A stretch of 64,000 bases of DNA, taken from assembly GCA_965220965.1 (NCBI GenBank), contig CBDCRI010000001.1, positions 128,001 to 192,000 on the forward strand, read 5' to 3'. Numbering within the stretch: position 1 is the stretch's first letter; each line of letters opens with the position of its first letter. The position numbers and the translations under genes are program-made. The notes below the pieces were generated by a model that saw only the letters and a program-made list of their open reading frames with translations, searched no databases and was not told where the DNA came from. The DNA is from Candidatus Marinacidobacterium sp. GTDB taxonomy: Bacteria > Acidobacteriota > Vicinamibacteria > Marinacidobacterales > Marinacidobacteraceae. Shown piece by piece: positions 22,560-63,590 of the stretch.

Positions 22560-24571
22560 GCGCGATCACGCTCAACCCCGAGCAGGCGCAGGCCTGCGCG
22601 CAGCTGGAGGGGCCCTGCCTGGTGGTGGCGGGGGCCGGCAGCGGCAAGACGCGCATCATCATCGAGCGGACCGCGCGCCTGATCGAGTCCGGCAAGGCGC
22701 TGCCCGGCAACCTGCTGATCGTGACCTTCACCAACAAGGCGGCCGACGAGATCAAGCAGCGCATCGCCGACCGCATCGGCCACGAGGGCGAGCTCATCGT
22801 CGCCGGCACCTTCCACAGCGTGCTGCACCGCGAGCTGCTCGGCCGCGCCGACACCCTGGCCGCCAGCTTCGAGGACCTCGACGCGCTCGGCCACCAGTTC
22901 GGCAGCCACGAGATCCTCGACGAGGACGCCGCCCGCAAGCTGCTCAAGGAGGCCATCGAGGAGTGCGGGGCCGAGGTCGAGGTCGCCGAGGCGGCCGAGC
23001 GCATGGGCCTGCTGCGCGCCCGCGGGCTGACCGCCGAGGCCTACCGCGGCCGCGCCGGCCCCGAGGAGGCCGGGCTGGTGGCGGCGTGGACGCGCTACGA
23101 GGAGCGCCTGGCGGAGTCCAACGCGCTCGACTTCGACGGCATCCTGATCGCCGCCCTGCGCCTGCTCGAGGAGGTGCCCGGCGTGGCCGAGGCGTTCGCC
23201 GCCGAGTTCCACTACCTGGCCGTCGACGAGTTCCAGGACACCAACCCGGTGCAGGGACGCATCCTGGACCGGATCATGGCCGGCGCGGCGCACGACAACC
23301 TCTGCGCGGTCGGCGACGAGAAGCAGTCGATCTACGGCTTCCGGGGCAGCGACATCGGCATCATCCTCAGCTTCCGCCGGCAGCACCCGAACGCCACCGT
23401 CATCAACATGAACCGCAACTACCGCAGCCAGCCGGGGATCATCCGGGCGGCCAACGCCTGCGCGGCGGCGATGGCCGAGCGGGTGACCGACGGGCGGCTG
23501 CTGGCCGAGGCGCCGCACCCGGCGCTGCCGTGCCTGGTCCGCGAGGACCGCAACCCCTGGGCCGAGGGCGAGCGCATCGCCCGGGCGGTCCGCGAGCAGG
23601 TGCGCCAGGGCGCCAGCCTCGACCAGGTGGCGGTGCTGTACCGCTACCGCGTCGCCAAGGACCCCATCGAGCGGGCGTTCCTGCGCGAGGGGCTGCCGTA
23701 CGTGATCGTCGGCGACGCCAGCTTCTGGCGGCGCTCGCACATCCGCGACGCGATGGCCTTCCTGACCTGCATCACCAAGCCCTGGGCCACCCACGCCACC
23801 CTGCGCACCGTCGAGGGCAGCGCCTCGTTCGGGACCTCGCGCAAGCGGCTGCAGTCGATCGCGGAGGCGAAGGGCGTCTCCATGACCAAGGCGATGGAGG
23901 AGGTGGCCGCGGAGACCGGCAAGGCCGGCCCCAAGCAGTCGGCCCGCAGGATGGCGGCCTACCTCGCGCACCGCGACGCGCTGCGCGACCTGCAGGCCAC
24001 CGGCTACGACCCCGGCGAGCTGGTCGCCCACGCCAAGCGCTTCTGGTCGATCGTCATGGCGCCCAAGTGGGCGCGCCGGGAGGAGGGGCGGCACCTGAAG
24101 CGCGTGGAGAGGGACGTCGACGTGCTGCTCGGCCTGCTTGAGGAGCGCCTGCGCAAGGGGATGGCGTGGGACCAGGCGATGGACGAGATGGCTTTTCTTT
24201 CGGTGGCCAAGCGCGGCGAGGCGCCGGCCGTCACCCTGTCCACGGTGCACTCGGCGAAGGGCCTGGAGTGGGACCACGTGCACTACGCCGGCCTCAACGA
24301 CCTGCGCGAGCGCCAGCGGGACGACCCCGACGAGCGCGAGGAGGAGCGCCGCGTGTTCTACGTCGGCATAACGCGCGCCCGCAAGACGCTCGACCTCTCC
24401 CTGCCGCTGGAGCAGGCGCCGCGGCCCGGAGCCCCGCCGGAGACCGGGCTCATGCCGTCCCGCTTCCTGCAGGAGGTGGTCGACGCCGGGGCGGCCCGCT
24501 TCGCCGACCGGCAGGCCCCGAACCGGCGCCACGGAACGGCCGCGGCCCCGCCGGCCGCGCAGTTGCAATAA
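22556..24571 (+). CDS. UvrD/PcrA-like SF1 helicase
   Basis: AGAGSGKT, TFTNKAA, GTFHS, VDEFQDTN, VGDEKQSIYGFRG, NYRS, TVHSAKGLEW, YVGITRA. Confidence 0.95.
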   Translation: MSAITLNPEQAQACAQLEGPCLVVAGAGSGKTRIIIERTARLIESGKALPGNLLIVTFTNKAADEIKQRIADRIGHEGELIVAGTFHSVLHRELLGRADTLAASFEDLDALGHQFGSHEILDEDAARKLLKEAIEECGAEVEVAEAAERMGLLRARGLTAEAYRGRAGPEEAGLVAAWTRYEERLAESNALDFDGILIAALRLLEEVPGVAEAFAAEFHYLAVDEFQDTNPVQGRILDRIMAGAAHDNLCAVGDEKQSIYGFRGSDIGIILSFRRQHPNATVINMNRNYRSQPGIIRAANACAAAMAERVTDGRLLAEAPHPALPCLVREDRNPWAEGERIARAVREQVRQGASLDQVAVLYRYRVAKDPIERAFLREGLPYVIVGDASFWRRSHIRDAMAFLTCITKPWATHATLRTVEGSASFGTSRKRLQSIAEAKGVSMTKAMEEVAAETGKAGPKQSARRMAAYLAHRDALRDLQATGYDPGELVAHAKRFWSIVMAPKWARREEGRHLKRVERDVDVLLGLLEERLRKGMAWDQAMDEMAFLSVAKRGEAPAVTLSTVHSAKGLEWDHVHYAGLNDLRERQRDDPDEREEERRVFYVGITRARKTLDLSLPLEQAPRPGAPPETGLMPSRFLQEVVDAGAARFADRQAPNRRHGTAAAPPAAQLQ

Positions 24572-24600
24572 TCCGGGTCCGGCCCCCAGGGGGCCGGGCT

Positions 24601-24618
24601 ATGGTATAATACATGTAT
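24601..24618 (+). promoter_or_regulatory. Extended -10 promoter ATGGTATAATACATGTAT
   Basis: 16/18 match to the rtcB/RNA-ligase promoter motif. Confidence 0.7.
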
Positions 24619-24667
24619 CACCCAAGGGGGGCTGCGCGGCGCGCCCGGCCCCGCCGCGGAGGGCGCG

Positions 24668-25552
24668 ATGCCAGCCAGTCCCGACAAGCCCGACAAGCTC
24701 GTCTTCGCCGTCAACCTCTCCGGGGGGCGCAGCTCCGCCTACATGCTGCACCACCTGCTGGAGCGCCACGGCGGCGCCCTGCCGCCCAACTGGGTGACCG
24801 TGTACTGCAACACCGGCAAGGAGCGCGAGGAGACCTTGGAGTTCGTGCGGCGCATCGGCGAGTCCTGGGGCGTGGACGTCCACTGGCTGGAGTACCGGCA
24901 CCGGCCGCAGGCGGCCGGCGGGGCCAAGGACCCGCGGCACGTCGCGGTGCGCGTCGACCACGCCTCCGCCAGCCGCCGGGGCGAGCCGTTCCAGGCGCTG
25001 ATGCGCGCCAAGAACCTGATCCCGCACGACACGTTCCGGCTCTGCACCGCGGAGCTGAAGATCGAGACCCAGCGGCGCTACCTGCGCCGCGAGCTCGGCG
25101 CCACCCACGTCATCTCGCTGATCGGCCTGCGCTTCGACGAGCCCCGGCGCTGGATGAAGCGCAAGGAGGACGCCGCCGTCGAGATGCCGCTGGTCGCCGC
25201 GCGGCGCACCGCCGCCGACGTGCAGGCGTTCTGGCGCGCGCACCCGTTCGACCTCGGCATTCCCAGCTGGAAGGGCAACTGCGACCTGTGCTTCCTAAAG
25301 TCCAAGGCCAACCTCGTGGCGACCATCCGCGAGGAGCCCTGGCGCGCCGACTGGTGGCTGGCGGCGGAGGCCTGGCGCCGCGACGCCACCTACGGCGCCG
25401 GCGCCAAGGCCAGGGCGGAGAACGCGCAGATGTCGCAGTCGCGCAGCTTCGCCGACCTGGTCCGCCTGGCCCGGGAGGGCGACCTGTTCGAGGGCTTCGG
25501 CGAGGTCGGCGACGAGCCGGCCATCGACTGCTTCTGCGGCGAGAGCGCCTAG
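24668..25552 (+). CDS. PAPS reductase/CysH-like (PP-loop) protein
   Basis: SGGRSS PP-loop, NTGKE, CTAELK, NCDLCFLK, C-terminal CFC. Confidence 0.85.
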   Translation: MPASPDKPDKLVFAVNLSGGRSSAYMLHHLLERHGGALPPNWVTVYCNTGKEREETLEFVRRIGESWGVDVHWLEYRHRPQAAGGAKDPRHVAVRVDHASASRRGEPFQALMRAKNLIPHDTFRLCTAELKIETQRRYLRRELGATHVISLIGLRFDEPRRWMKRKEDAAVEMPLVAARRTAADVQAFWRAHPFDLGIPSWKGNCDLCFLKSKANLVATIREEPWRADWWLAAEAWRRDATYGAGAKARAENAQMSQSRSFADLVRLAREGDLFEGFGEVGDEPAIDCFCGESA

Positions 25553-25580
25553 CCCCGGCCCACCGATCCGAGGAGGCCCC

Positions 25581-26237
25581 GTGGAAAGCATCCTGTCCTG
25601 CCCCATCGCGCTGGTCGACGGCCGCTTCCGCGGGCGCGCCCACATCGGCCCCGCCGAGGCCGAGGAGCTCGCCCGCGCCTTGGCCGCGGCCGGCGACTTC
25701 CGCCCCCGCGAGGGGGTGGAGGCCGACGCCGGCCGCGCCCAGCCGATCGGCATCGTGGTGGTGCGCGACCCGCAGGGCGGCGTGCTGCGGCTGCGGCGCC
25801 GGGAGCCGGACGGCGCCGGGCCGCTGCACGGCCGGGCCGTCGTCTGGGTGGGCGGCCACTGCGACGCCGGCGACGGCCAGGGCGGGCCGCCCCTGCTGCG
25901 CTGCGCCCTGCGCGAGCTGCGCGAGGAGCTCGGCGCGGACGCCGGCGACGGGCGCGCCCTGCGGCCGCTGGGGGCGGTGCGCTCCTACGGCAGCGCACGG
26001 GCGCGCATGCACTTCGGCGTCGCCTGGGAGTGGGTCGCCGGGGCGGACGCCGGACTCGCGCCGTGCGCGGAGGAGTTCATGGCCGGCGGCGCCCGGTTCG
26101 CCGACCCCGGCGCGCTGGGCCGCGAGGCCGGCGACCCCGGCTCAGCCCTCGACGGCTGGTCGCGCGCGCTCATCCGCCACGCCCTGGCGGCGCCCGCCGC
26201 CGCGCCTGGCCGCCGTCCCGCCCGGGCCGCGCCCTGA
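25581..26237 (+). CDS. NUDIX-fold hydrolase-like protein
   Basis: VGGHCD...RELREELG. Confidence 0.7.
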   Translation: MESILSCPIALVDGRFRGRAHIGPAEAEELARALAAAGDFRPREGVEADAGRAQPIGIVVVRDPQGGVLRLRRREPDGAGPLHGRAVVWVGGHCDAGDGQGGPPLLRCALRELREELGADAGDGRALRPLGAVRSYGSARARMHFGVAWEWVAGADAGLAPCAEEFMAGGARFADPGALGREAGDPGSALDGWSRALIRHALAAPAAAPGRRPARAAP

Positions 26238-26263
26238 GCCCGGCCGGCCCCTCAGCCAGCCCG

Positions 26264-26566
26264 CTAGGCCCCGTCGTCGGAGCGGGCGAGCACCGCCCCT
26301 TGCGGCCGCGCCCGGGCGTCAAGCAGCACGATCACGTGGTCCGGGCCGCACTCCATGGCCCCATGGAAGGCCGTCCAGGCCTCCTCGAGGCGCCGGTGGG
26401 CGGACAGCCGAACGCCCAGGTCGCGCGGGTCGGCGCCGGAGCGGACGAGGTCCGCCTCGCCGACCGAGCTGACCAGCCAGCGCGGCGGCGCCGCATGCCG
26501 GCCGGCCCAGTCCCCGTCGACGGCGCGCGCGACGCGGCGCGGGGCCGGCCCTGCGGCAGGGGTCAT
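26264..26566 (-). CDS. Small hypothetical protein
   Basis: ATGA overlap with the DUF4326 stop codon. Confidence 0.5.
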   Translation of the reverse strand: MTPAAGPAPRRVARAVDGDWAGRHAAPPRWLVSSVGEADLVRSGADPRDLGVRLSAHRRLEEAWTAFHGAMECGPDHVIVLLDARARPQGAVLARSDDGA

Positions 26567-26889
26567 GGCCCGCAGGCCGGCTCGCCCGAGGGCCGGCGCA
26601 GCCGGGCGGCGGCCCAGGCGGCGGCCCGCGCCAGCGTCTCCCCGTGGCAGGGCAGGGGCGCGCAGTGGCAGGCGAGGTCGCGCCCGTGCAGGGCCGCCAG
26701 GGCCCCCAGCGGCACCTCGCCGGCACGGATGCGGCGCCACAGGTCGGCCCGGTGCCGGGCGATGACCTGCCCGCGGTCGCCGTCGCGGCCGATCACGAAC
26801 GGATTGCCCCAAGGGGTGCGCCGGTCGATGCGCACCGCGCCCCTGGACAGCGCGTCGGGCTCCCGTTCGAGGTTGACGATGCGGGCCAC
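26563..26889 (-). CDS. DUF4326-like protein
   Basis: IDRRTPWGNPF and GRDLACHCAPLPCHGETL. Confidence 0.88.
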   Translation of the reverse strand: MARIVNLEREPDALSRGAVRIDRRTPWGNPFVIGRDGDRGQVIARHRADLWRRIRAGEVPLGALAALHGRDLACHCAPLPCHGETLARAAAWAAARLRRPSGEPACGP

Positions 26890-26897
26890 GGCGCCGC

Positions 26898-27449
26898 CTA
26901 GCCGGGGGCCATGCGGGCCGACGGGGTCGCGGCCGGCGCCGCATCCGCCGCCGCGGCGATGCCCAGGATGCGCATGGCCTCCGGGGACAGCGCCATGACC
27001 GCAACGCTGCCGAAGCGGGTGGGCACCCGGGCGCCGGTGGGGCTGGCGACGCCGGCGCGCTGCAGCAGCGCCTCGGCGCCCTCCGCCTCCACCCCCGCCG
27101 CGAGGTGGATCTCGCCGGGGCGGCGCTCGACGCCCGCGAAGCGGGCCGTCAGGCGTCCGCCGCAGCCGATGCCCGGGTAGCCGGCGGGGTCGCCGTCAAG
27201 GCCGTGCATCGCCGGGTCGCCGATGCGCAGCATCTCACGCTCGAAGTCCTCCTCCGGGGGCAGGGCCAGGTACAGGTCGGCGCCGCCGTCGGGATGGCCG
27301 CGCCCCACGACCCGGGCGTGGGCGTCGGGCGCAGCGGCGGGCATCTCGCGTCCCGGGGCCTCGATGAGGCCGGTGACGAAGCGCCACTCGCCGAAGCGCT
27401 CCAGCCAGTCGTTGAAGGCCGGGTTGGGCCTGCCCAGGGAATCGTCCAT
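26898..27449 (-). CDS. Hypothetical protein divergent from the cas operon
   Basis: Protein-like ORF with a TACAAT -10-like element upstream. Confidence 0.65.
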   Translation of the reverse strand: MDDSLGRPNPAFNDWLERFGEWRFVTGLIEAPGREMPAAAPDAHARVVGRGHPDGGADLYLALPPEEDFEREMLRIGDPAMHGLDGDPAGYPGIGCGGRLTARFAGVERRPGEIHLAAGVEAEGAEALLQRAGVASPTGARVPTRFGSVAVMALSPEAMRILGIAAAADAAPAATPSARMAPG

Positions 27450-27532
27450 TGCGCGCGCTCCGCTTGAATGAGGTCACCCCATTGTAGGAACGCGGCCCCG
27501 GCACGGCCCCGCGCCGCTTGAGGGCGCGCGCC

Positions 27533-27545
27533 TATGGTATAATAC
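27533..27545 (+). promoter_or_regulatory. Extended -10 promoter of the cas operon (TATGGTATAATAC)
   Basis: TGnTATAAT about 30 bp before cas8e. Confidence 0.7.
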
Positions 27546-27571
27546 GGCCACCGCACCGCCCGGGGCCGACC

Positions 27572-29119
27572 TTGAACCTCCTGAACGAGCGCATCTTCTC
27601 CATCGCCGGCCGCGGGCCGGCGTCGCTGCCCGGCACGCTCGCTGCGCTGTCGGCCGGGGAGGCGCCCGGCTTCGCCGCCCTGCGGCCCCACCAACGGGCG
27701 GGCTGGCACAGCCTCCTCGTCCAGCTCGGCGCCCTGGCCTGCCTCGAGGCGGGCTCCGACGCGCTGCCGGGGGACGAGGGCGCCTGGGCCGACCGGCTGC
27801 GCGCCCTCACGCCGGAGCACCCCGACGACGCCCCTTGGCGTCTCGTGGCGGACGACCCCAGGGCGCCCGCCTTCCTGCAGCCCCCCGACCCCGGCATCGA
27901 GCGCTGGGCCGAGGTCGCCACCCCGGACGGCATCGACCTGCTGGCGCAGTCGCGCAACCACGACCTCAAGCGCGCGGCCGCAATGGGCGCCCAGGCCGAG
28001 GACTGGGTCTTCGCGCTGGTCTCCATCCAGACCGGCGGCGGCACCTACGGCCGCGGCCGCCACCCCATCGCCCGAATGAACCGCGGCTTCTCCAGCCGCT
28101 TCCTCATGGGCCTCGCCCCGGCCGGCGAGGGCGAGGCCGACTGCACGGTGGACCCGTCCGCCTGGTGGCGGCGCGACGTCCGCCGCCTGCTCGGCGAACG
28201 GCGGGCGGACGGCGGCGCGGACGGCCTGCGCGGCGACGCGCTGCTGTGGACGCTCGACTGGGAGGAGGGGGAGCAGCTGCGCCTCGAGACGCTCGACCCG
28301 CTGTTCGTCGAGGTCTGCCGCCGGATCCGCCTGCGGGCGGCGGGCGACGGGCTGCGCGCGGACCGCGCCGGCTCGGCGCGGGCGCGGATCGACGCCCAGG
28401 ACCGGCGCGGCAACGTGGGCGACCCGTGGGCGCCCGTCCACGCCAAGAAGGGCAGCACGCTGACCTACGCGGGCGGCGGCCTCGGCTCCAAGCTGGTCTG
28501 CCAGCTCCTGTTCAGCGGCGACTGGACGCTGCCGCCGCTGGCCCGCCCGGGGCCCGAGGACGCCGGCCCGATGGTGCTCGTCCTGGAGGCGCTGGCGCGC
28601 GGCCAGGGCAAGACCAACGGCCACGCACGGCGCCAGATCCGGGTGCCGGCGCTGGCCGTGCCCGCGCTCGGCGAGGCCGCCACGGCCGATGCCGCCAAGC
28701 GGCTCCGGGAATGGGTCGACGCGGGCTTCGCCGCAGTGCGCCAGGCGCTGGGGGCGGCCGCATCGAGCCAGGGCGGGCGGCCGGGACGGCGCGCCGGGCG
28801 CCAGTCGCTCGACGGGGCCAAGGCGTTCCTCGCCGAGGCCGACCAAGGCTTCTTCCCGGCCCTGTGGCGCCAGGTCGAGGCCGACCGCACGTCGGCGGCG
28901 GCGTCCGAGGCGGCCTCGCTGGAGAACCGCCTGTGGCTGCTCGACGCGGCCCGGCGCGCCAGCGCCCGCGCGGCCGCGGCGACGTCCTGCCCGCCCGCGC
29001 TGCGGCCGGCGCTGGCGGCCCGCGCCGGCGGCCTGGCCGAGTTCCGGCTGCGCGCCCTGCCCGAGTTCGCGGACCTCCCGGACGCCGCGGACCGTGACCG
29101 CGATGCCGGCGACGGCTGA
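27572..29119 (+). CDS. cas8e: Type I-E large subunit Cas8e (CasA/Cse1)
   Basis: NLLNE N-terminus, PAFLQP, EVCRRIRL, DPW; first gene of the Cascade operon. Confidence 0.85.
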   Translation: MNLLNERIFSIAGRGPASLPGTLAALSAGEAPGFAALRPHQRAGWHSLLVQLGALACLEAGSDALPGDEGAWADRLRALTPEHPDDAPWRLVADDPRAPAFLQPPDPGIERWAEVATPDGIDLLAQSRNHDLKRAAAMGAQAEDWVFALVSIQTGGGTYGRGRHPIARMNRGFSSRFLMGLAPAGEGEADCTVDPSAWWRRDVRRLLGERRADGGADGLRGDALLWTLDWEEGEQLRLETLDPLFVEVCRRIRLRAAGDGLRADRAGSARARIDAQDRRGNVGDPWAPVHAKKGSTLTYAGGGLGSKLVCQLLFSGDWTLPPLARPGPEDAGPMVLVLEALARGQGKTNGHARRQIRVPALAVPALGEAATADAAKRLREWVDAGFAAVRQALGAAASSQGGRPGRRAGRQSLDGAKAFLAEADQGFFPALWRQVEADRTSAAASEAASLENRLWLLDAARRASARAAAATSCPPALRPALAARAGGLAEFRLRALPEFADLPDAADRDRDAGDG

Positions 29120-29693
29120 GCCGGCGGGCGGCACCGCCGCCGAGGACGCCGCGTTCGCCGCCTGGCAGCTGCGCCTGATGGACGCCGCCGACCTCGCCCT
29201 CCTGCGCCGCAAGGGGCGGACCGGCCAGACGCCGGCGTTCTGGCGCCTCGCCGCCCAGCGCCCGGCCAGCATCGGCGACCCCAGGCGGGCGGACGAGTGG
29301 GCCTGCATCATCCGCATCATGGCGCTGCTGATGCCCAAGGGCGCGCCCGGGCGCCGGGCGAAGCTGCACGACCGCGACCGTCGCCTCGGCGCCGTGCTGT
29401 GCGACGGCGGCGACCCCGAGTGGCCCGGGGAGGCCGCCCCCAGGCCGAAGGTCAGCGAGGCCCGGCTCAAGGCGCTGCTGGCCTCGCGCGGCCGCGAGCG
29501 CCTGCAGCGGCTCGCGCAGGCGGCGCGCATGCTCAGGCTGGCGCCGGGCACCGGCCTTGACGTGGGCGACCTCGCCCACGCCGCGCTGTTCCCCAGCGAC
29601 GCCGGCCGGATCTCGCGGCACTACCACCGGCGGCTGCTGGCCGCCCGGAATCCCGATCCCGAAACCCCAACCGAAGGAGACCCCTCCCCATGA
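29103..29693 (+). CDS. cas11: Type I-E small subunit Cas11 (CasB/Cse2)
   Basis: ADLALLRR, LGAVL, SEARLKALL, ISRHYH; position between cas8e and cas7. Confidence 0.85.
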   Translation: MPATAEPAGGTAAEDAAFAAWQLRLMDAADLALLRRKGRTGQTPAFWRLAAQRPASIGDPRRADEWACIIRIMALLMPKGAPGRRAKLHDRDRRLGAVLCDGGDPEWPGEAAPRPKVSEARLKALLASRGRERLQRLAQAARMLRLAPGTGLDVGDLAHAALFPSDAGRISRHYHRRLLAARNPDPETPTEGDPSP

Positions 29694-30820
29694 CAACCCC
29701 ACGGTTCGTGCAGATACACACCCTCACCTCGTACGCGGCGACGCTCCTGAACCGCGACGACAGCGGCCTCGCCAAGCGGCTGCCCTACGGCGGGGCGGTG
29801 CGCACGCGCATCTCCTCGCAATGCCTCAAGCGCCACTGGCGCGACGCCGACGACGAGCACGCGCTGCACCGCATCGAGGGCTCGCACGCCTCGCTGCGCT
29901 CGCGCAGCCTGGTCAGCAAGCTGGTGATCGCGCCGCTGCGCGGCGAGCACCCCGACGAGGTCCTCGACGTGATCGAGGAGCACTGGCAGGTGGCCGTCTA
30001 CGGCGAGCAGGGCGCGGACAGGAAGAGCCGCCCCACGCTGCTGTTCGGGGCGCCCGAGATCGCCTGGCTCAAGGGCGAGGCGGCGCGCGTGGCGGCCGGC
30101 GCCGACGGCAGCGCGGAGGTCGCCGAGCAGGCGGCCCAGGAGTGGGGCAAGGGGTTCGCGCGCAACATCAAGGCGCTGCGCGCCAACGCGGCGATGCCCG
30201 GCGGCCTGGTGGCGGCGCTGTTCGGCCGCATGGTCACCTCCGACCCGGCCGCCAACATCACCGCGCCGGTGCACGTGGCGCACGCCTTCACCGTGCACGC
30301 GGAGGAGGCCGAGACCGACTGGTTCACCGCGGTCGACGACCTCGCCGGGGCCGGCGAGCCCAGGACCGACACCATCCAGGAGACCGAGCTCAGCTCCGGG
30401 CTCTTCTACGGCTACGTGGTGGTCGACGTGGCCGGCCTGCTCGGCAACCTGGCCGGCGACGCGGCGCTGGCGGGGCAGGTCCTGCACAACCTCTGCTACT
30501 TGGTCGCCGAGGTGTCGCCGGGCGCCAAGCGCGGCTCCACCGCGCCCTACGGGCGGGCCTCCTTCCTGCTCGCGGAGGCCGGCAGCCGGCAGCCGCGAAG
30601 CCTTGGGGAGGCCTTCCGCGCCCCCATCGGCCGGCACGACCTCGACGCCGCCGTCTCGGCGCTGTCCGCCCACCTGGAGCGGCTCGACAAGGCCTACGCC
30701 ACCGGCGAGGAGCGGCGCGTCATGTCGCTCGCCGACGGCGGGGCGCCGGCGGCCGAGCCCGCCACCCTGGCCGAGGTCGCGCAATGGGCGCAGGGGCTGC
30801 CGGCGGCGCTGTCGCAATGA
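29690..30820 (+). CDS. cas7: Type I-E Cas7 (CasC/Cse4)
   Basis: LNRDDSG.AK, RISSQCLKRHWR, ALFGRM, VAHAFTVH, DWFTAVDDL. Confidence 0.97.
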   Translation: MTTPRFVQIHTLTSYAATLLNRDDSGLAKRLPYGGAVRTRISSQCLKRHWRDADDEHALHRIEGSHASLRSRSLVSKLVIAPLRGEHPDEVLDVIEEHWQVAVYGEQGADRKSRPTLLFGAPEIAWLKGEAARVAAGADGSAEVAEQAAQEWGKGFARNIKALRANAAMPGGLVAALFGRMVTSDPAANITAPVHVAHAFTVHAEEAETDWFTAVDDLAGAGEPRTDTIQETELSSGLFYGYVVVDVAGLLGNLAGDAALAGQVLHNLCYLVAEVSPGAKRGSTAPYGRASFLLAEAGSRQPRSLGEAFRAPIGRHDLDAAVSALSAHLERLDKAYATGEERRVMSLADGGAPAAEPATLAEVAQWAQGLPAALSQ

Positions 30821-31542
30821 GCCGACGATGGCTCGCCCTCGCCCTTGAGGCGCCGCTGATGTCGTTCGGCGACGTCCGCGTCGACCGCCTCGGGCCGACC
30901 CGCGCCTTCCCCGCCGCCTCGATGGTGGCGGGCCTGCTGGCCAACGCCCTGGGCTGGGACCGCACCGCTTGGCGCGACCACCAGGCCCTGCAGGACCGGC
31001 TGGTGCTCGCCTCCCGCATCGACCGCGAGGGCCGCTCGCTCGCCGAGCTGCAGAACGCGGGCCTCGACGCCGGCGACCTCGGCTGGACCACGCGCGGCGA
31101 GCCGGAGGGGCGGAGCGGCGGCGCGGCCACCTACTCAGCCCCCCACCAGCGGGCCATGGACTACATCGCGGACGGCGCCCTGAGGGCGGTCGTGGGCCTG
31201 CGCGCGGCGGCCTCCGGGCCGAGCCTCGACGACCTCGCCGAAGCGCTCGACGCGCCCGCCCGGCCGCTGCACATCGGCCGCAAGCACTGCCTGCCCGCAC
31301 GGCCGCTGCTGGCGGACGGGGCCGGGCGGTGGGTGGACGCCGAGTCCGCCCACGCGGCGCTGGCGGCGCTGCCCGGCGACGGGCGGCTGCGGGCGACCTG
31401 GCCGGCCGGCGAGGGCCCGGAGGAGGGCCCCGACGTGGCGCGCGTCATCGACCTCGCCGACCTGCGCCTGTGGCGGGCGGGCCACCACGCCGGCGCGCGC
31501 CGCGTAGTGGAGGGCTGGGTCCGGCCGGCGCCCGCCGCGTGA
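30817..31542 (+). CDS. cas5: Type I-E Cas5 (CasD)
   Basis: LEAPLMSFG, P..SMVAGLLANALG, IGRKHC. Confidence 0.95.
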   Translation: MSRRWLALALEAPLMSFGDVRVDRLGPTRAFPAASMVAGLLANALGWDRTAWRDHQALQDRLVLASRIDREGRSLAELQNAGLDAGDLGWTTRGEPEGRSGGAATYSAPHQRAMDYIADGALRAVVGLRAAASGPSLDDLAEALDAPARPLHIGRKHCLPARPLLADGAGRWVDAESAHAALAALPGDGRLRATWPAGEGPEEGPDVARVIDLADLRLWRAGHHAGARRVVEGWVRPAPAA

Positions 31543-32276
31543 GCGCCCTGCACCTCGCCGTCGCCAGCGTCAGCCTCCCCGCCATGCTCCGGTGGGGGGA
31601 GGAGCGGGGCCTGACGCGCCTGGCCAGGCGGCGCGGCCGCGCCGTCGTCGACGAGGGGCTCATCCTCCACCACCTGGTGCGCGAGACCTTCGGCCCCGGC
31701 GCCCTGCAGCCGTTCCGCCTGCTGGCCGCGCGCGGCGAGGAGGCCGGCCACCTCTACGGCTACTCGGCGCTCGAAGCGGGGGCGCTGCGCGAGAGCGCCC
31801 AGGCCATCGCCTCGCCGCTGGCGCTGCGCGCCATCGGCCTGGAGCGCCTGGCGAGCAAGCCCATGCCCAACGGCTGGCGCGCCGGCCAGCGCATGGGGTT
31901 CGACGTCCGGGTCCTGCCGACCCGCCGGTCCTCGAGGGCCGAGGCGGGCGGCGACGGCCGGCGGAGCCGGGAGTTCGACGCCTTCGACGGCGCCGGCCCG
32001 CGGCCGCAGGGCCGCGAGTCGGCCTACCTCGACTGGCTGGCCGAGCGGCTCGCCCCGGCGGCCGCGCTCGAGCGGGACTCGTGCCGGCTGGCGGCCCACC
32101 GGCGCCGCCCCGCGGTGCGCGGCCGGCGGCTGATCCCAAGCTCGGAGGCGGTCATCCAAGGGACTTTGGCGATCACGGACCCCCCAGCCTTCAGCGCCCT
32201 GCTGGCGGCCGGCGTCGGCCGCCACCGGAGCTACGGCTACGGCATGGTGCTGCTGCGCGCGCCGGCCCCCGAGTGA
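31539..32276 (+). CDS. cas6e: Type I-E Cas6e (CasE/Cse3)
   Basis: C-terminal G-rich loop GVGRHRSYGYGM; last gene of the operon. Confidence 0.93.
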   Translation: MSALHLAVASVSLPAMLRWGEERGLTRLARRRGRAVVDEGLILHHLVRETFGPGALQPFRLLAARGEEAGHLYGYSALEAGALRESAQAIASPLALRAIGLERLASKPMPNGWRAGQRMGFDVRVLPTRRSSRAEAGGDGRRSREFDAFDGAGPRPQGRESAYLDWLAERLAPAAALERDSCRLAAHRRRPAVRGRRLIPSSEAVIQGTLAITDPPAFSALLAAGVGRHRSYGYGMVLLRAPAPE

Positions 32277-32325
32277 GGGCGCTGGTTGGACGAAGCCGAC
32301 GCTGACGGGAAGCGCGCCCCCGGCC

Positions 32326-33186
32326 TCACGGGGCCGGGCCGACCGCGCGCGGGCCGGCCGGCTCCATGGCGACCTTGACGGACGCCCTCAGGCGCGCCTC
32401 GGAGCCCTGCGCCCCCAGGGTCGCCTGCGGGGCCGGGCTCCGGTCGGCCTCGACGTGCCGCCGAAACTCGGCACTGGTCTTCTCCAGCCAGCGAACCAGC
32501 CTTGCCGTGTCGGCGAAGCCGGCGCCGTGCAGCGCGTCCGCCGTCCTCCGGAGAGCCCCCCTGCGCTGGCGCATCGGCAGCTCATGGGCACGGGTCACGT
32601 GGGAGGCCACCCAAGCGCCGATGCGCTCCGGGGAGCCGCCGGATAGCCGCCGCAAGGTCAGGTCCGGCGACAGGATGAAGTCCCGGCCGTCGCCAAGGAC
32701 CGTGCGCGCCCAGGCGTTGGCCCGCTCATGGTCTATCGTGTTCAGGTTGTTGGTGCTCAGCAACGTGGCCCCGTGAATGAGCGCTTGGGCGAGAATCAGC
32801 GGATCGCCGGCAGGCGGGTCAGGGACGGGGGCGGCAATCCCGCTGGGCAGCGACCTGACGATGCGGGCGGCGTTCGCCGCCTGCTGCCAGGTCTGCTCAA
32901 CGCGGCGGTAGGCGGTGTCCTCGCGGTCGAGCTCCGCCCGGAACCACTGCTGCGCGGAAGCCATCATCCGTTCCGCAATCTCCGATTGCGCCCCTTCCCC
33001 CAGGTTGCTCCGCCCTTGAAAGAGCTCCTGGGCCCTCTCCGCTTGGGTGATGCGGATGCCGCGCGTGACCTCGTCGAGCACTTCCGGCAGGATGAGCAGC
33101 TCATGGCCCTGCTCAAGGGCGATGGCATGCAGCAGCGTTCTGGGCGTCGGACGCAGCAGCAGGTTGGTGTCAGGGGCCAGGAGCAT
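32326..33186 (-). CDS. PIN-like domain protein (pair 1, toxin-like)
   Basis: DTNLL, EVLDE, GDPLI, LSTNN acidic PIN pattern. Confidence 0.65.
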   Translation of the reverse strand: MLLAPDTNLLLRPTPRTLLHAIALEQGHELLILPEVLDEVTRGIRITQAERAQELFQGRSNLGEGAQSEIAERMMASAQQWFRAELDREDTAYRRVEQTWQQAANAARIVRSLPSGIAAPVPDPPAGDPLILAQALIHGATLLSTNNLNTIDHERANAWARTVLGDGRDFILSPDLTLRRLSGGSPERIGAWVASHVTRAHELPMRQRRGALRRTADALHGAGFADTARLVRWLEKTSAEFRRHVEADRSPAPQATLGAQGSEARLRASVKVAMEPAGPRAVGPAP

Positions 33187-33415
33187 CCTTCGGCGCCTCC
33201 CCCTCCGCACCCGTGGCCCCTTGGGCCATTCCCCGGTGCTGGCGCATGGCGATGCACCATTGCTCGTGCTCGGAGAGGGGAACGTCCTTGAAGGGCGCGT
33301 GCGCATCGACGTCCGCGTCCGCAACGATCTCCCGGGCGGCGGCCTCCCCGACCACGCCGGCAACCGCGGCGCGCTGCGTTTCGATGAAGCGGAGCTTTTC
33401 CGGTGGGATCGCCAT
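33170..33415 (-). CDS. Small partner of PIN-like gene (antitoxin-like)
   Basis: 81 aa, overlaps the PIN start; TATAAT upstream. Confidence 0.55.
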   Translation of the reverse strand: MAIPPEKLRFIETQRAAVAGVVGEAAAREIVADADVDAHAPFKDVPLSEHEQWCIAMRQHRGMAQGATGAEGEAPKDAPGP

Positions 33416-33504
33416 GGCCCCTCAATTATAGCAGCGGCGGCGGGGATTGCCGCAAGGCGGGGCCATGCAACGGGCCCGCCGGCTCCCTGCGCGGGCGGCC
33501 GCCC

Positions 33505-34368
33505 TCACGGCGAGCCGCCGGCCAAGCCGTCGAGCCCAGGGCGAATGACGAGCGCCAGGCCGCCCGCCGCCGCCAGGAAGGGGCCGAAGCGAATGGGCGC
33601 GTTGCGGTCGCGGCGGCCCGTCAGGGCCGGCGGCAGGACGCACAGGACGGCGGCCGCGGCGGCCAGCGCCAGGACCGCCGGCAGCGCCTGCCAGCCCAGC
33701 CAAGCGCCGATGGCCGCGCAGAGCTTGAAGTCGCCGCGGCCCATGCCCTCCCTGCCGGCGGCAAGCTTGAACGCCCAAGCGGCCGCCCACGGAAGCAGGT
33801 AGCCCGCCGCCGCGCCGCCGACCGCCGAGGCCAGCGGCGCGAAGGCTCCCGACAGGTTGGCCAGCAGGCCGCACCAAAGCAGCGGCAGGGTGAGCCGGTC
33901 GGGCAGGAGGCCTGCCTCGAGGTCGAGGCCCGACAGCGCGATCAACGTCCACAGGCACAGGGCCGCCGCCACGGCCGCCCACGTCAGGCCGAAGGCCAGC
34001 ACGGCGGCCAGCGCCGCCAGCAGGCCGAGCAGCTCGACGATCGGGTAGCGCGGGCTGATGGGCGCGGCGCAGGCGGCGCAACGTCCGCGCAGGCGGAGCC
34101 AGCCCAGCACCGGAATGTTGTGCGCCACCTTGATCCGGGCGCCGCAGGCCGGGCAGTGCGAGCGCGGCACGGCGAGGTTGAAGGGGACAGGCGACGGCTC
34201 GGCCGCGGCGCCGAGCTCGGCGGACGCCTCCAGCCGCCAAGCGCGGGACAGCATGATCGGCAGCCGGTGGATGACCACGTTCAGGAAGCTGCCGACGGTC
34301 AGGCCCGCCGTGAGGAGCAGGCCGCCCAGCACGGCCAGCCCATGGCCAGTCGCCTCGATCTCCGCCAT
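33505..34368 (-). CDS. pilD: Prepilin peptidase (A24)
   Basis: GSFLNVVIHRLP, SHCPAC, GRCAAC, LLPD, GMGRGDFKL, FGPFLA. Confidence 0.93.
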   Translation of the reverse strand: MAEIEATGHGLAVLGGLLLTAGLTVGSFLNVVIHRLPIMLSRAWRLEASAELGAAAEPSPVPFNLAVPRSHCPACGARIKVAHNIPVLGWLRLRGRCAACAAPISPRYPIVELLGLLAALAAVLAFGLTWAAVAAALCLWTLIALSGLDLEAGLLPDRLTLPLLWCGLLANLSGAFAPLASAVGGAAAGYLLPWAAAWAFKLAAGREGMGRGDFKLCAAIGAWLGWQALPAVLALAAAAAVLCVLPPALTGRRDRNAPIRFGPFLAAAGGLALVIRPGLDGLAGGSP

Positions 34369-34607
34369 CCCAGCCTCAAGCGAGGGATCCGGGCGCCAAG
34401 GCCACCTGCGGCCGGAGGGCCTCGACCCCGCCGTTCCGCCCGGCAAGGACGCCCATGGCCAACGGCTCCCCAATGCGCAGCATGGGCAAGCGGCGGGCTT
34501 CAATGCGGCGGCGCGCCTCTTCCGACGGGCGTGGCTCGGTTGTCGCGATGGGTTTCAACTCCCTCAGCGGGGCGCCGCTGCAGCGGCCGTCCCTTCCGGC
34601 CGGACAA

Positions 34608-34708
34608 TTGTAAACCGCCCGCCATCCGCCCTTGAAAGGGGAGGAATGCGGCAGCGGGCACGAATCAAAAGAGCGACTCCCCTCCACCAAGGGCTTGGCG
34701 CGCAGGGC
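34608..34708 (+). promoter_or_regulatory. CRISPR leader A
   Basis: Alignable by eye to the leader at 35352-35449. Confidence 0.6.
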
Positions 34709-34920
34709 GTGCCCCCGCCCACGGGGGATGCGCCACTGACGACGCAGCCTCGCGAACCTCCAGCTGCGGATTGCCCCGCCCGCGCGGCGATGGACCTTGC
34801 GCGCCGTGCCCCTCCAGCCGATTTTTGGGTTTGGCCCCGCCGGCGCGGGGATGATCCAGGTTTGGACCGTGCGGTGCCTGTGGTTTGGCTGACTGCCCCC
34901 CCCTGTGCGGGGACGGCCTC
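34709..34920 (+). CRISPR. Degenerate type I-E array A (4 repeats, 3 spacers)
   Basis: CCCCGC..GCGGGGATG-like repeats at about 34709, 34771, 34831, 34893 (about 61-bp period). Confidence 0.75.
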
Positions 34921-35351
34921 TTGCATCAGCGTGAAGCGCATTGAGGGGGCATCCCCATTGACGGCTCCGGACAGGCCCCCCCCTGCGGCGCCATGAGGCT
35001 GGCTCTCGCCGTGTTGGGCTTTCCAAAGCGCGATGGCTTGGGGAGGCCGCCCCCGACACTGGGCCTTGGCCCCGCCGGGGCTCCGCAATCCGACGGTCTG
35101 GGACGTCCGCCCTGAATGGCCCATGGGCCCAGCATGCGGAAGCCCGGCTCCCGTGCGCAACGCCCCGGTGGGCCGGGTGGACGGTTGGCGCCCCGCTGCC
35201 ACCATGGGGGACTTCGTCGCCGAGCCTGCCAAGGACCGCTTCGGCGCGCGCCGCGCGCTCCGGCGACTAGGGCGAAAGGTCCGGTCACCTCTCATCGAGA
35301 GCCGTTGGAAGGCGGCATGCGCAGCTCGGGAATGGCGCTTTTGCGCGATTG

Positions 35352-35449
35352 CTGTACACTGGCCGACATCGGCTTTGAGTTGGGGAGGATGCGGCAGAAA
35401 GTACTCTAGGCGCCCACAACAGGCATTCAATCAAGGACTTAGTGCATAG
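35352..35449 (+). promoter_or_regulatory. CRISPR leader B
   Basis: More AT-rich; TACACT about 95 bp before the first repeat. Confidence 0.6.
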
Positions 35450-35971
35450 GCTGGCCCCGCCCGCGCGGGGATGGACCCGGCAAATTACTTTACCGCGGTC
35501 AGTGGAGTGACTTGGCCCCGCCCTCGCGGGGATGGACCCAGGGACCGTTATGCAGTCGATCAATCGAAGGACTTGGCCCCGCCCGCGCGGGGATGGCCCC
35601 TTGTCGAGCAGGAAGGGATGAAGGTGATCGTGGTTGGCCCCGCCTGCGCGGGGATGGGCCGTCGAAGGGAAAGTTTGGTTGCGAACTGATGTCGTTGGCC
35701 CCGCCTGCGCGGGGATGGTCCCGAGTTAATCGAGGGCAGGACGGAAAGTCTTGCGTTGGCCCCGCTTGCGCGGGGGTGGACCCTGAAGATCGGGGCTTGG
35801 GACGATGCCGGCATTGTTGGCCCCGCCCACGCGGGGATGATCCAGATTTGGACCGCGCCGTGCCTGCGGTTTAGCTGACTGGCTGCCCCGCCTGCGCGGG
35901 GATGGGCCTCCATCGATGAACAGGAGCCGACCGTTCCTCGACGCTCGCCCCGCCCAAGCGGGGATGGACCG
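35450..35971 (+). CRISPR. Type I-E array B (9 repeats, 8 spacers)
   Basis: Repeat approx. TTGGCCCCGCCYGCGCGGGGATGGACCC, 61-bp period. Confidence 0.97.
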
Positions 35972-39055: not shown

Positions 39056-39073
39056 ATGGTATAATGCATGTGT
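39056..39073 (+). promoter_or_regulatory. Extended -10 promoter ATGGTATAATGCATGTGT
   Basis: Identical to 10097-10114. Confidence 0.75.
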
Positions 39074-39103
39074 CACGCATTGGAGCAACGGAGTCCCCCC
39101 CCC

Positions 39104-62768: not shown

Positions 62769-63590
62769 GGCGGCCCCGCTTGCGCGGGGATGAACCCTTA
62801 TACTCAGGCAACTTTGATTAGTGCGTGATGGCGGCCCCGCTTGCGCGGGGATGAACCCGATGAATATGCGCCGATTACGCCGAACAGGGCGGCTGCCCCG
62901 CCAGCGCGGGGATGGACCTTCGCATTGACAATCGGGATGCGTATCCGGTAGGACTGCCCCGCCTGAGCGGGGATGGCCCCCCGTAAAGCAGAGCTTACGG
63001 ACACCATGCCATGACTGCCCCGCCAGCGCGGGGATGGGCCCAGGCAGCTACTATAGTGCGGCAGCATGAACAGGGCGGCCCCGCCTGCGCGGGGATGGAC
63101 CCATTGTCGCATTGATCGAAGGGAGTCGTGCGGCGACGGCCCCGCCAGCGCGGGGATGGACCCTCCATGCCTAGTCTCCTTGCGATGCATCAAAGGGCGG
63201 CTCCGCCAGCGCGGGGATTGACCCACATGGTTTGAGCTGCTCGAGTGGCGCGAGCCGGCGGCCCCGCCTGCGCGGGGATGGACCCTTTTTAGTGTGGTCG
63301 TGTGCAACCGATTCTGAGGCTGCCCCGCCTGCGCGGGGATGGCCCCCCGAAAATCAGGGCTTGCGGAAACCATGCCATGACTGCCCCGCCTGAGCGGGGA
63401 TGGACCCGTTTTGGAAGCACCCACGGGACATCTGAGCATGGCGGCCCCGCCGGCGCGGGGATGCACCCTTGATGGCGGCGTCATCGAGCTCCGAGGCAAT
63501 AACCGCCCCGCCAGCGCGGGGATGGAGCGACTGACGCTTAGTTGGGCTCAATTGCCTTTGCGGCTGCCCCGCCACTGCGGGGACGGGCCC
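62769..63590 (+). CRISPR. Type I-E array C (14 repeats, 13 spacers of 32 bp)
   Basis: 29-bp repeat approx. GGCGGCCCCGCCTGCGCGGGGATGGACCC, 61-bp period. Confidence 0.97.

What the first reader, a model, noticed from the sequence alone, without database searches (positions are those of the whole stretch)
27533..32276. Self-contained type I-E Cascade with no nuclease or adaptation genes
Seen: cas8e-cas11-cas7-cas5-cas6e has its own extended -10 promoter and is bounded by a divergent gene upstream and a convergent gene downstream. No cas3, cas1 or cas2 appears in 64 kb, and no subunit carries an obvious HNH or other fusion. Known: Cas3-less class 1 systems on mobile elements act in transposition (CAST) or silencing (type IV-A). 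No Tns genes are present here. Inference: an RNA-guided binding/repression system, for example for inter-element competition or gene regulation, or one that uses an effector supplied in trans.
Basis: partly seen in the sequence, partly recalled or inferred. Interest (0 to 1): 0.78.

Follow-up and report, generated by a model that had tools for sequence, protein, structure and literature searches.

The report
Cascade-only type I-E CRISPR remnant
A complete five-gene type I-E Cascade complex with its guide-RNA arrays sits on a 363-kb second replicon, but its DNA-cutting enzyme (Cas3) and spacer-acquisition genes (Cas1, Cas2) have been lost; at most it can bind DNA rather than cut it, and it is a recurrent loss state, not a new kind of system.

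Summary
Window 27572-32276 encodes intact, translationally coupled cas8e-cas11-cas7-cas5-cas6e behind a perfect extended -10 (TGGTATAAT, 27535-27543). No subunit carries a fused domain. No type I-E cas3, cas1e or cas2e was found in the window or anywhere in the 3.25-Mb assembly.

- Type I-E CRISPR arrays lie in the window (34769-35971 and 62769-63590) and elsewhere on the replicon.
- The genome also carries a type I-D-like locus with cas1/cas2/cas4 and a partial type I-G locus with an intact Cas3g.

Close relatives (54-71% identity) are overwhelmingly canonical: cas3 is present in 43 of 46 loci with enough flank, and cas1 in 51 of 57. Cascade-only loci are scattered across the tree and share no neighbouring gene. 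This is therefore lineage-specific loss, not a dedicated Cas3-less clade.

The loss looks old. Of 55 repeats, 47 are different sequences, whereas relatives with cas1-cas2 have uniform repeats. Even so, the Cas6e hairpin and handle positions stay about 95-100% invariant, and the five proteins keep 90% of family-conserved residues. This suggests crRNA-Cascade assembly was under selection for most of that time.

Best reading: a fixed-repertoire complex that binds DNA without cutting it, or one decaying slowly. No targets and no expression data were found.

The parts
27535..27543 (+). Extended -10 promoter element TGGTATAAT in the 122-nt gap between the divergent ORF and cas8e
   Evidence: Read directly from the sequence. 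Not found by the consensus scan, which needs a -35 (0 promoter-like sites). Function is inferred.
27572..29119 (+). cas8e (cse1), 515 aa, TTG start
   Evidence: PADLOC Cas8e 2.4e-115, alignment starting at residue 19 of the longer ORF, which is 27572. 47% identity to Azospirillum Cse1 by tblastn. Bounds.
29103..29693 (+). cas11 (cse2), 196 aa, overlapping the cas8e stop by 17 nt
   Evidence: PF09485, 30.2 bits. 45% identity to the Azospirillum homologue. Start candidates.
29690..30820 (+). cas7e (casC), 376 aa
   Evidence: PF09344 2.7e-89. TIGR01869, 322 bits. Single copy in the genome.
30817..31542 (+). cas5e (casD), 241 aa, no HNH insert
   Evidence: TIGR01868, 156.5 bits. PF09704 4.2e-31.
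31539..32276 (+). cas6e (casE), 245 aa. Keeps the invariant His44 and the C-terminal GxGRHxxxGxG loop of its relatives.
   Evidence: PF08798 8.6e-24. 16-sequence alignment A2. Profile match to solved Cse3/CasE chains.
34708..34921 (+). Decayed mini-array A. Two recognisable repeats at 34769 and 34830, flanked by two more eroded copies. It is a diverged duplicate of the distal end of array B.
   Evidence: (the spacer after 34830 is 88% identical to the spacer at 35845).
35350..35449 (+). Leader of array B, with motif TGCTGTACACTGG (35350-35362) and a repeat-proximal CAAGGACTTAGTGCATAGG. Similar motifs were read by eye in the leaders of the other arrays.
   Evidence: Leaders E, F and G are 85-90% identical over about 360-400 nt.
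35450..35971 (+). Type I-E CRISPR array B: 9 repeats of 29 nt with a period of 61-65 nt. The repeats differ from one another.
62769..63590 (+). Type I-E CRISPR array C: 14 repeats with a 61-nt period. The repeats differ from one another.
26898..27449 (-). Boundary only: divergent 183-aa ORF with no family match
   Evidence: no hits. Codon-position GC pattern supports coding.
32326..33363 (-). Boundary only: convergent PIN-domain ORF. It occupies the place where relatives have cas1e-cas2e.
   Evidence: PF01850, 27.4 bits. Relatives' gene order.

Best explanation
[quoted passage not shown] In this lineage cas3 and cas1e-cas2e were lost cleanly and long ago.

What remains is a promoter, five intact and translationally coupled Cascade genes, and at least seven leader-bearing I-E arrays (55 repeats) on the same circular 363-kb replicon.

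The most likely mechanism has three steps:
1. The arrays are transcribed.
2. Cas6e cuts at the conserved hairpin.
3. Cascade loads 61-nt crRNAs from a frozen set of about 50 spacers and binds matching DNA next to a PAM.

Without Cas3 the outcome can only be an R-loop or roadblock (silencing), not degradation.

Shown: gene content, gene integrity, absence of the other modules from the assembly, descent from complete systems, and the pattern of repeat drift. Inferred: expression, complex assembly, DNA binding, and any benefit to the host.
For: 1. All five subunits are identified and align over their full length with relatives, with no stops or frameshifts.

2. No I-E cas3, cas1e or cas2e was found by HMM or by tblastn with sequences from seven relatives' loci.

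3. Descent from complete systems:
- cas3 is present in 43 of 46 related loci with at least 5 kb upstream, and cas1 in 51 of 57 with at least 2.6 kb downstream.
- 10 of the 12 class-level genome loci fetched are complete.
- The window lies outside the well-supported clade (SH-aLRT 98) that holds L020, L116, L029 and L037.

4. Long time without adaptation:
- 47 distinct sequences among 55 repeats.
- Relatives with cas1-cas2 have essentially uniform repeats (L020 53 copies, also L022, L026, L043, L100).
- Two other loci without cas1-cas2 that hold arrays (L035, L125) also have degenerate repeats.
- Spacers and leaders that are duplicates of each other have diverged by 10-20%.

5. Constraint on the crRNA:
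- Repeat positions 5-12, 16-24 and 27-28 are 93-100% invariant, and 52 of 55 stems are perfect.
- Positions 2-4, 13-15, 25-26 and 29 have a major allele of only 36-82%.

6. Constraint on the proteins:
- 306 of 341 family-conserved positions are kept (0.90), despite the longest terminal branch in the tree (0.81 changes per site).
- Invariant Cas6e residues, including His44, are kept.

7. Engineered Cascade can silence genes. I saw only the title and the opening of the abstract of PMC4288158.
Against: - Conserved-position retention (0.90) is the lowest of all ingroup loci. The next lowest is 0.937, and long-branched complete loci score 0.94-0.97. Several changes are radical, for example Cas8e G165P, G171R, K295S and Y306S, and Cas5 R114M and R127G. 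Selection is therefore relaxed, or GC pressure is strong.
- No protospacer was found in the genome. The best match is 23 of 32 positions with no AAG-type PAM, and 335 seed hits is about the chance number.
- No protospacer was found in the phage collection. There were 4 weak hits with E 0.03-0.4 for one array and none for the other two.
- There is no expression evidence of any kind.
- Other Cascade-only genomes look like decay. G034 has only cas7, cas5 and a short cas6 detectable. G267 has an intact Cascade but only vestigial arrays.
- Repeats at array ends with eroded stems were not counted, so the stem statistic is slightly favoured by how repeats were picked.
- The assembly is 94% complete by marker genes, so an unbinned replicon cannot be excluded.
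Confidence: 0.5

Rival explanations
1. Non-functional remnant. After cas3 and cas1-cas2 were lost the module has no role. The genes are still open only because decay is slow, and in 78% GC DNA stop codons arise rarely. The hairpin conservation reflects selection that ended some time ago.
For: - Lowest conserved-residue retention of all ingroup loci, and the longest terminal branch.
- No targets found.
- Other Cascade-only genomes show further decay: G034 has a partial Cascade and G267 has vestigial arrays.
- Mini-array A and the array ends are eroding.
- Partial states recur without any shared partner gene.
Against: - All five genes align over their full length with no frameshift across 4.7 kb.
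- 90% of conserved positions are kept on a branch of 0.81 changes per site.
- Hairpin and handle positions are about 95-100% invariant, while other repeat positions and duplicated spacers drifted 20-60%.
- A perfect extended -10 and overlapping stop/start junctions are retained.
Confidence: 0.32
2. Nuclease or adaptation supplied in trans. Cascade would recruit the type I-G Cas3g (contig 1) or the type I-D-like Cas3'/large subunit (same replicon). Alternatively a cognate I-E cas3 with cas1-cas2 sits on a replicon missing from the assembly.
For: - An intact 931-aa Cas3g, 616 bits to TIGR02621.
- A type I-D-like locus with cas3', cas4, cas1 and cas2 on the same replicon.
- Assembly completeness is 94%.
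- Arrays F and G keep 3-5 near-identical leader-proximal repeats, which fits adaptation at some point after the array duplications.
Against: - The drift into 47 repeat variants argues against ongoing I-E adaptation.
- The I-D-like array has a different repeat and 36-41-nt spacers.
- From general knowledge, not tested here: Cas3 recruitment in type I-E runs through subtype-specific contacts with Cas8e.
- Cas3g belongs to a partial I-G locus interrupted by IS21.
Confidence: 0.1
3. Cascade retained for a regulatory or addiction role, guided by ectopic or degenerate repeats. Examples would be CreTA-like toxin repression or crlRNA-like control of neighbouring defence genes.
For: - The module sits in a defence island: methylases, helicases, AbiEii, Fic, PIN.
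- Degenerate mini-array A is present, and there are isolated hairpin copies elsewhere on the replicon.
- CreTA modules direct Cascade to repress a toxic RNA. I saw abstract openings only, for PMC9458426 and PMC8501985.
- crlRNAs are reported to repress defence-system promoters. I saw the abstract opening only, for 10.1101/2024.12.27.630466.
Against: - No spacer or pseudo-spacer has a match in the genome above chance.
- No candidate small toxin was identified.
- Mini-array A is simply a decayed duplicate of the end of array B.
Confidence: 0.08

Closest known systems
Canonical type I-E CRISPR-Cas (cas3-cas8e-cas11-cas7-cas5-cas6e-cas1e-cas2e plus array), as on Azospirillum argentinense plasmid p5 and in most related loci
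   Same: Same five Cascade families in the same order. 29-nt hairpin repeats with a 61-nt period and 32-nt spacers. Cas7 identity of 64-71% to the nearest members.
   Different: cas3, cas1e and cas2e are missing from the locus and from the assembly. The repeats are heterogeneous rather than uniform.
[quoted passage not shown]
   Same: A class 1 effector with no nuclease and no adaptation module, on an extrachromosomal replicon. The expected output is binding or silencing. I saw passages of PMC12669027 and the abstract opening of 10.1101/2023.06.23.546257.
   Different: The subunits here are bona fide I-E families, not Csf proteins. No dedicated helicase is linked: the UvrD-like and RecD-like genes 3-9 kb away are not found in the other Cascade-only loci.
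HNH-Cascade variants I-E2 (Cas5-HNH) and I-F4, and I-E3 (Cas11 fused to a PD-(D/E)xK nuclease)
   Same: Derivatives related to type I-E that typically lack Cas3 (passages of PMC12669027 and PMC10910872).
   Different: No replacement nuclease here. Cas5 is 241 aa and Cas11 is 196 aa, with only their own family matches.
CRISPR-associated transposons (I-F3, I-B, I-E5 CAST)
   Same: A type I Cascade without interference activity and without an adaptation module (passages of PMC8616872 and PMC12669027).
   Different: No Tns or TniQ genes among the ORFs scanned, and a blank TniQ genome search (control silent). There are many ordinary arrays rather than one short atypical array.
Engineered cas3-less Cascade used for programmable gene silencing in E. 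coli
   Same: The same composition (Cascade plus crRNA, no Cas3) gives repression by binding. I saw only the title and abstract opening of PMC4288158.
   Different: That is a laboratory construct. Here the state arose naturally, and its activity is untested.

Membership tests
Type I-E CRISPR-Cas effector (Cascade) | Cas8e, Cas11, Cas7e, Cas5e and Cas6e are all present, in one operon and in this order | tested here: met
   Two curated NCBIfam scores (casA at 32 bits, casE at 38.8 bits) fall below their cut-offs, but PADLOC/Pfam and tblastn to relatives confirm both genes.
Type I-E CRISPR-Cas effector (Cascade) | Cognate arrays: about 29-nt repeats with a GC-rich hairpin and a 61-nt period | tested here: met
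   55 repeats on the replicon, 25 of them in the window's three arrays.
[quoted passage not shown] | Cas3 helicase-nuclease (HD plus SF2 helicase) of I-E type | tested here: not met
   No cas3_core match over its cut-off. The best is 73 bits, inside a type I-G Cas3g. tblastn with relatives' Cas3 finds only that helicase motif. Positive controls G223 and G365 score 174 and 166 bits.
[quoted passage not shown] | Cas1e-Cas2e adaptation module | tested here: not met
   TIGR03638: no match in G000, while G223 scores 282 bits. PF09707: no match. The only Cas1 is of I-B/I-D type, 132 kb beyond the end of the window.
I-E2 / I-E3 nuclease-fused Cascade variants | HNH fused to Cas5, or PD-(D/E)xK fused to Cas11 | tested here: not met
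   Each subunit matches only its own family, and lengths are ordinary.
CRISPR-associated transposon (CAST) | Tn7-like tnsA/B/C and tniQ (or another transposase set) next to Cascade, plus transposon ends | tested here: inconclusive
   None among about 45 window ORFs scanned. The TniQ genome search was blank but rang in no control genome. Not every ORF was scanned, and transposon ends were not searched for.
Type IV-A CRISPR-Cas | Csf1/Csf2/Csf3/Csf5 subunits and a DinG helicase | tested here: not met
   The subunits match I-E families strongly. No DinG was seen among the neighbours scanned.
CreTA / crlRNA-type regulatory use of Cascade | An ectopic degenerate-repeat guide with a partial match to a nearby promoter | tested here: inconclusive
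   Seed-plus-extension scan of 49 spacers over the genome: 335 hits, about the chance number, with the best at 23 of 32. Pseudo-spacers next to single ectopic repeats were not examined.

The most novel reading that the evidence does not exclude
Cascade-only type I-E modules may be a recurrent, selectively maintained end state rather than debris. After losing Cas3 and Cas1-Cas2, the complex would be kept as a nuclease-free, fixed-repertoire DNA-binding system on secondary replicons. It would work as a natural CRISPRi, analogous to type IV-A, silencing competing elements or defence-island genes. In this reading, selection is visible as hairpin- and handle-preserving drift of otherwise unrenewed repeats.
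Probability: 0.2. Interest if true: 0.7.

Novelty: new member of a known kind. Interest (0 to 1): 0.4.

Why it matters
If the complex is still active, it is a natural experiment in what a type I Cascade does without its nuclease. It would give a simple sequence marker for such states: many repeat variants with invariant hairpin and handle positions.

If it is only a remnant, it shows the order and tempo of type I-E decay. Adaptation and nuclease go first, the effector and hairpins go last. It is also a caution against reading every Cas3-less Cascade on a plasmid as a new functional class.

Among the other Cas7e-bearing genomes examined in the same class, 2 of 15 were Cascade-only and 1 of 15 had cas3 but no cas1/cas2. 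The state is therefore not rare.

Tried and rejected
- **Dedicated Cas3-less clade: rejected.** In the Cas7-only tree and the first 33-row five-protein tree the window grouped loosely with L029 and L037. An AU test did not reject one clade (p 0.29; I named the group after seeing the tree). After adding 12 genome loci, a well-supported branch places L029 and L037 with the complete loci L020 and L116, and excludes the window.
- **Conserved alternative effector: rejected.** The window's UvrD-like, SspD-like, NUDIX, DUF4326, 183-aa, PIN, RecD-like and 836-aa proteins have no homologue in the 80 metagenome loci or the 12 class-level loci. ORFs next to L029, L037 and L038 have no homologue near the window's Cascade. 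Those next to L038 are transposase fragments.
- **Self-targeting: nothing above chance**.
- **Phage targets:** 4 weak hits with E 0.03-0.4 for array B, none for array C or the distal arrays. The plasmid collection was not searched with the arrays.
- **Close relatives with context:**
  - The genome-contig scan with the single protein gave one locus at 42% identity.
  - The first metagenome scan gave none. The second, with alignment A1, gave 80 loci.
- **Expression:** no RNA holder was listed. Read laying returned contigs only, one of which spans 21000-37769 without differences. This is no evidence on expression either way.
- **Cas6e against solved structures:** no match with the single sequence. 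The profile matched only the C-terminal half, so the catalytic His was judged from alignment A2 alone.
- **Literature:** searches found no paper describing stand-alone Cascade-only I-E loci as a class. This covers those searches only. Supplements were not consulted and may list such loci, for example the data files of PMC12669027 and PMC10910872.

Full report
**What is there.**

The window is positions 128001-192000 of a 363,302-bp contig (C2). The assembly has two contigs and 3.25 Mb, with 71-73% GC. The last 200 bases of C2 recur at position 1141 of its start, so the contig is most likely a closed circle with an assembly overlap.

Family searches identify five + strand genes:
- cas8e: PADLOC 2.4e-115. 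NCBIfam gives only 32 bits against a cut-off of 70, and Pfam gives nothing.
- cas11/cse2: PF09485, 30.2 bits.
- cas7e: TIGR01869, 322 bits.
- cas5e: TIGR01868, 156.5 bits.
- cas6e: PF08798, 85.4 bits. NCBIfam gives 38.8 bits against a cut-off of 45.2.

From start-codon positions and alignment ends I place them at 27572-29119, 29103-29693, 29690-30820, 30817-31542 and 31539-32276. Every junction overlaps, as in a translationally coupled operon.

A perfect extended -10, TGGTATAAT, lies at 27535-27543, 29 nt before the cas8e TTG. The tool's sigma-70 scan, which requires a -35, reports no promoter-like site, so the promoter is a reading of the sequence, not a test.

The upstream ORF 26898-27449 is divergent and has no family. 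The downstream ORF 32326-33363 is a convergent PIN-domain gene. No subunit has extra domains or unusual length.

In the whole assembly there is a single Cas7e. The other modules are absent:
- No cas3_core match passes its cut-off.
- No Cas1e match (the positive control G223 scores 282 bits).
- No Cas2e match.
- tblastn with I-E Cas3, Cas1 and Cas2 of the Azospirillum and Pontibrevibacter plasmids, and of five closer loci, finds no remnant in the window. In the rest of the genome it finds only a helicase motif.

That motif belongs to an intact type I-G Cas3g (931 aa, 616 bits). It lies in a partial I-G locus on contig 1 (csb1, csb2, cas3g, Cas3-extension protein, then IS21).

C2 also carries a lower-GC type I-D-like locus at 317-326 kb. 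It has cas3', cas4, cas1 and cas2, plus its own array of about 20 uniform repeats.

The window does contain type I-E arrays: a decayed mini-array at 34708-34921, nine repeats at 35450-35971, and fourteen at 62769-63590. Four more mini-arrays lie at C2:330.5-333.8 kb and a small one near 283.6 kb.

**Where it comes from.**

The nearest Cas7 in the 5.8-billion-protein set is 71% identical. Thousands more follow at about 65-70%, so this is a lone branch of a very common I-E clade.

Closest loci with context:
- Among plasmids, Azospirillum argentinense p5 (64%) and a Pontibrevibacter plasmid (59%) have cas3 upstream and cas1e-cas2e downstream.
- I pooled 80 metagenome loci fetched with a Cas7 alignment, three relatives' genome loci, the one genome contigs locus and the two plasmid loci. 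cas3 is present in 43 of the 46 with at least 5 kb upstream of cas7. cas1 is present in 51 of the 57 with at least 2.6 kb downstream.
- The exceptions are L029 (same locus type as L028), L038 (same as L037), L102 (G034), L035 (cas3 present, no cas1/cas2) and the fragmentary L080.

In an even sample of 401 genomes of the host's class, 17 including the host have a Cas7e at E <= 1e-60. I examined 15 of the 16 others; G183 sits on a 3.5-kb contig and was not examined.
- 12 are complete.
- G034 and G267 are Cascade-only in the locus and in the whole genome.
- G365 has cas3 but no cas1e.

**Phylogeny.**

The Cas7 tree is unresolved around the window.

A 33-row tree of the five concatenated proteins grouped the window with L020 (complete), L029 and L037 at SH-aLRT 86. 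An AU test did not reject the three Cascade-only rows as one clade (p 0.29; the group was named after the tree was seen).

With twelve more genome loci, a well-supported clade (98) unites L020, L116 (G223, complete), L029 and L037 and excludes the window. L124 (G267) sits in a different major clade. At least two losses are forced by well-supported branches, and three or more are likely.

No gene next to the window's Cascade has a homologue beside any other Cascade-only locus, and the reverse also holds. L038 has transposase fragments where cas3 would be.

"Recent" is the wrong word for the loss, though.

**How old the loss is, and whether the remainder is constrained.**

The 55 in-phase repeats on C2 comprise 47 different sequences. 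Arrays of complete relatives are essentially uniform: L020 has 53 copies, and L022, L024, L026, L043 and L100 behave the same way. The two other cas1-less loci that hold arrays (L035, L125) are as heterogeneous as the window. Heterogeneity therefore tracks the absence of Cas1-Cas2, which normally copies the first repeat.

Evidence of long drift:
- Several spacers are diverged duplicates of each other (26 of 32 identical, for instance).
- Three leader-array units are 85-90% identical over 360-400 nt.

The drift is strongly position-specific:
- Repeat positions 5-12, 16-24 and 27-28 (the hairpin stem with its flanking G and C, and most of the 5' handle) are 93-100% invariant, and 52 of 55 six-pair stems are perfect.
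- Positions 2-4, 13-15 (the loop), 25-26 and 29 have major alleles of only 36-82%.
- Caveat: eroded copies at array ends were left out, which favours the stems a little.

For the proteins, the window keeps 306 of 341 positions that are at least 90% conserved among canonical loci (0.90). Ingroup canonical loci keep 0.94-0.99, including long-branched ones: L067 0.94, L022 0.96, L077 0.97. The other Cascade-only loci keep 0.95-0.97.

The window also has the longest terminal branch, 0.81 against a median of 0.25, and a deviant amino-acid make-up. Many of its changes run towards GC-rich codons (F to L, I to V, N to R, K to S, Y to S/H), but some are radical.

Taken together, purifying selection acted over most of the branch, with relaxation, compositional pressure, or both. 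Cas6e keeps every residue that is invariant in a 16-sequence alignment, including His44 and the C-terminal glycine-rich loop.

**Function.**

The module's own genes can provide crRNA processing, Cascade assembly and PAM-dependent DNA binding. They provide no nuclease and no adaptation. Binding without cutting is therefore the default mechanism if the genes are expressed.

I found no targets:
- No self-match above chance.
- No credible phage match.
- The 49 spacers average 55% GC in a 72% GC genome. The I-D-like array's spacers average 58%.

No RNA run was available. I cannot separate a still-used binding complex from a slowly decaying one. I put the first at about 0.5 and the second at about 0.3.

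Trans use of Cas3g or the I-D-like proteins (about 0.1) and a CreTA- or crlRNA-like regulatory role (about 0.08) are not excluded, but nothing supports them directly.

**Comparison with known systems.**

By subunit families, gene order and repeats this is a type I-E effector. It fails the tests for a complete I-E system (Cas3, Cas1e-Cas2e). It also fails the tests for I-E2/I-E3 (nuclease fusions), and for type IV-A.

The CAST test is inconclusive but negative as far as it went.

The 2025 classification passages I read list I-E2, I-E3 and I-E5 as I-E variants and do not mention a Cascade-only form. My four literature searches found no paper treating such loci as a class. Supplements were not available.

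In function it would most resemble type IV-A or an engineered cas3 deletion.

**Verdict.**

The feature is a real, apparently old, Cascade-only derivative of a canonical I-E system. It is one of several independent occurrences and has no new component.

The most interesting detail is the hairpin-preserving drift of unrenewed repeats, which could serve as a marker of continued crRNA use. Interest 0.4.

Noticed in passing
G000:C2:317149-327400 (outside the window; loci L006, L007): A lower-GC (58-66%) type I-D-like locus. It has a 1025-aa ORF with no family hit, csc2-like cas7, a 221-aa ORF, cas3', cas4, cas1 and cas2. It is followed by an array of about 20 uniform repeats (GTTCCCAATCCCCATGAGGGGTAATGAG) with 36-41-nt spacers. 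It looks recently acquired and holds the only Cas1/Cas2 in the genome.
   Followed up: partly
G000:C1:1450856-1461142 (locus L019): A partial type I-G locus: csb1/cas7g, csb2, an intact 931-aa Cas3g (616 bits) and a Cas3-extension-family protein. It is followed by IS21 istA/istB. No cas8g, cas4-cas1 or cas2 was seen, and no array was looked for.
   Followed up: partly
window 35350-35449, 62650-62768; C2:330.4-333.1 kb: The leaders of the arrays carry a TGTTGTA(C/A/G)ACTG-like motif about 85-100 nt upstream, read by eye in the printed leader ends. A CTTA..G.ATAGG motif abuts the first repeat. Three leader-plus-array units (E, F, G) are 85-90% identical duplicates.
   Followed up: partly
window 22250-26237: A co-oriented trio just upstream of the Cascade neighbourhood: a UvrD/PcrA-like helicase (773 aa, 106-aa N-terminal extension with no match), a PAPS-reductase/SspD-like protein (PADLOC SspD 3.4e-16) and a NUDIX protein. 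It could be a defence module of its own. It is not found beside other Cascade-only loci.
   Followed up: partly
window 12584-18338: An N6 DNA methylase (PF02384) followed by a DEAD/ResIII helicase, and a convergent RecD2-like helicase. The RecD2-like helicase core matches the PADLOC type IV RecD model (1.4e-51, core region only). This is defence-island context, with no link to the Cascade shown.
   Followed up: no
window 39065-57890: Further island genes: an RNA ligase with PHA02142 OB fold, a run of six co-oriented ORFs (40131-46619) with no family, two C5 cytosine methylases, an AbiEii-like nucleotidyltransferase, a tyrosine integrase and a Fic-domain protein. An RF-1-domain (prfH-like) ORF lies at 61265-61834.
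   Followed up: no
L124:7740-7830 (G267:C1:~791240-791330) and L128:2090-2250: In another Cascade-only genome, two repeats separated by only about 20 nt directly follow the cas6e stop. A four-repeat eroded array with 32-, 21- and 31-nt spacers lies elsewhere. This is either a vestigial array or a regulatory mini-array.
   Followed up: partly
L029:32-5300: Three large co-oriented ORFs (590, 738 and 482 aa) with no Pfam match sit upstream of a Cascade-only I-E operon in a metagenome contig. They occupy the place where cas3 would be, and they have no homologue in the window's genome.
   Followed up: partly
window 2617-2826: A 21-nt tandem repeat (about 6-10 copies, GCTGCTGGACCGG...) inside a - strand ORF (2540-3235). 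It probably encodes a repetitive peptide.
   Followed up: no
window 34700-36000; C2 arrays: The spacers of the I-E arrays average 55% GC, and those of the I-D-like array 58%, in a 72% GC genome. Their sources were therefore much less GC-rich than the host, or the arrays came from elsewhere.
   Followed up: partly
G000:C2 ends: The last 200 nt of the 363-kb contig recur at position 1141 from its start. This suggests a circular replicon with about 1.3 kb of assembly overlap. No repABC homologue was found on it using a Pontibrevibacter plasmid's RepA/B/C.
   Followed up: partly
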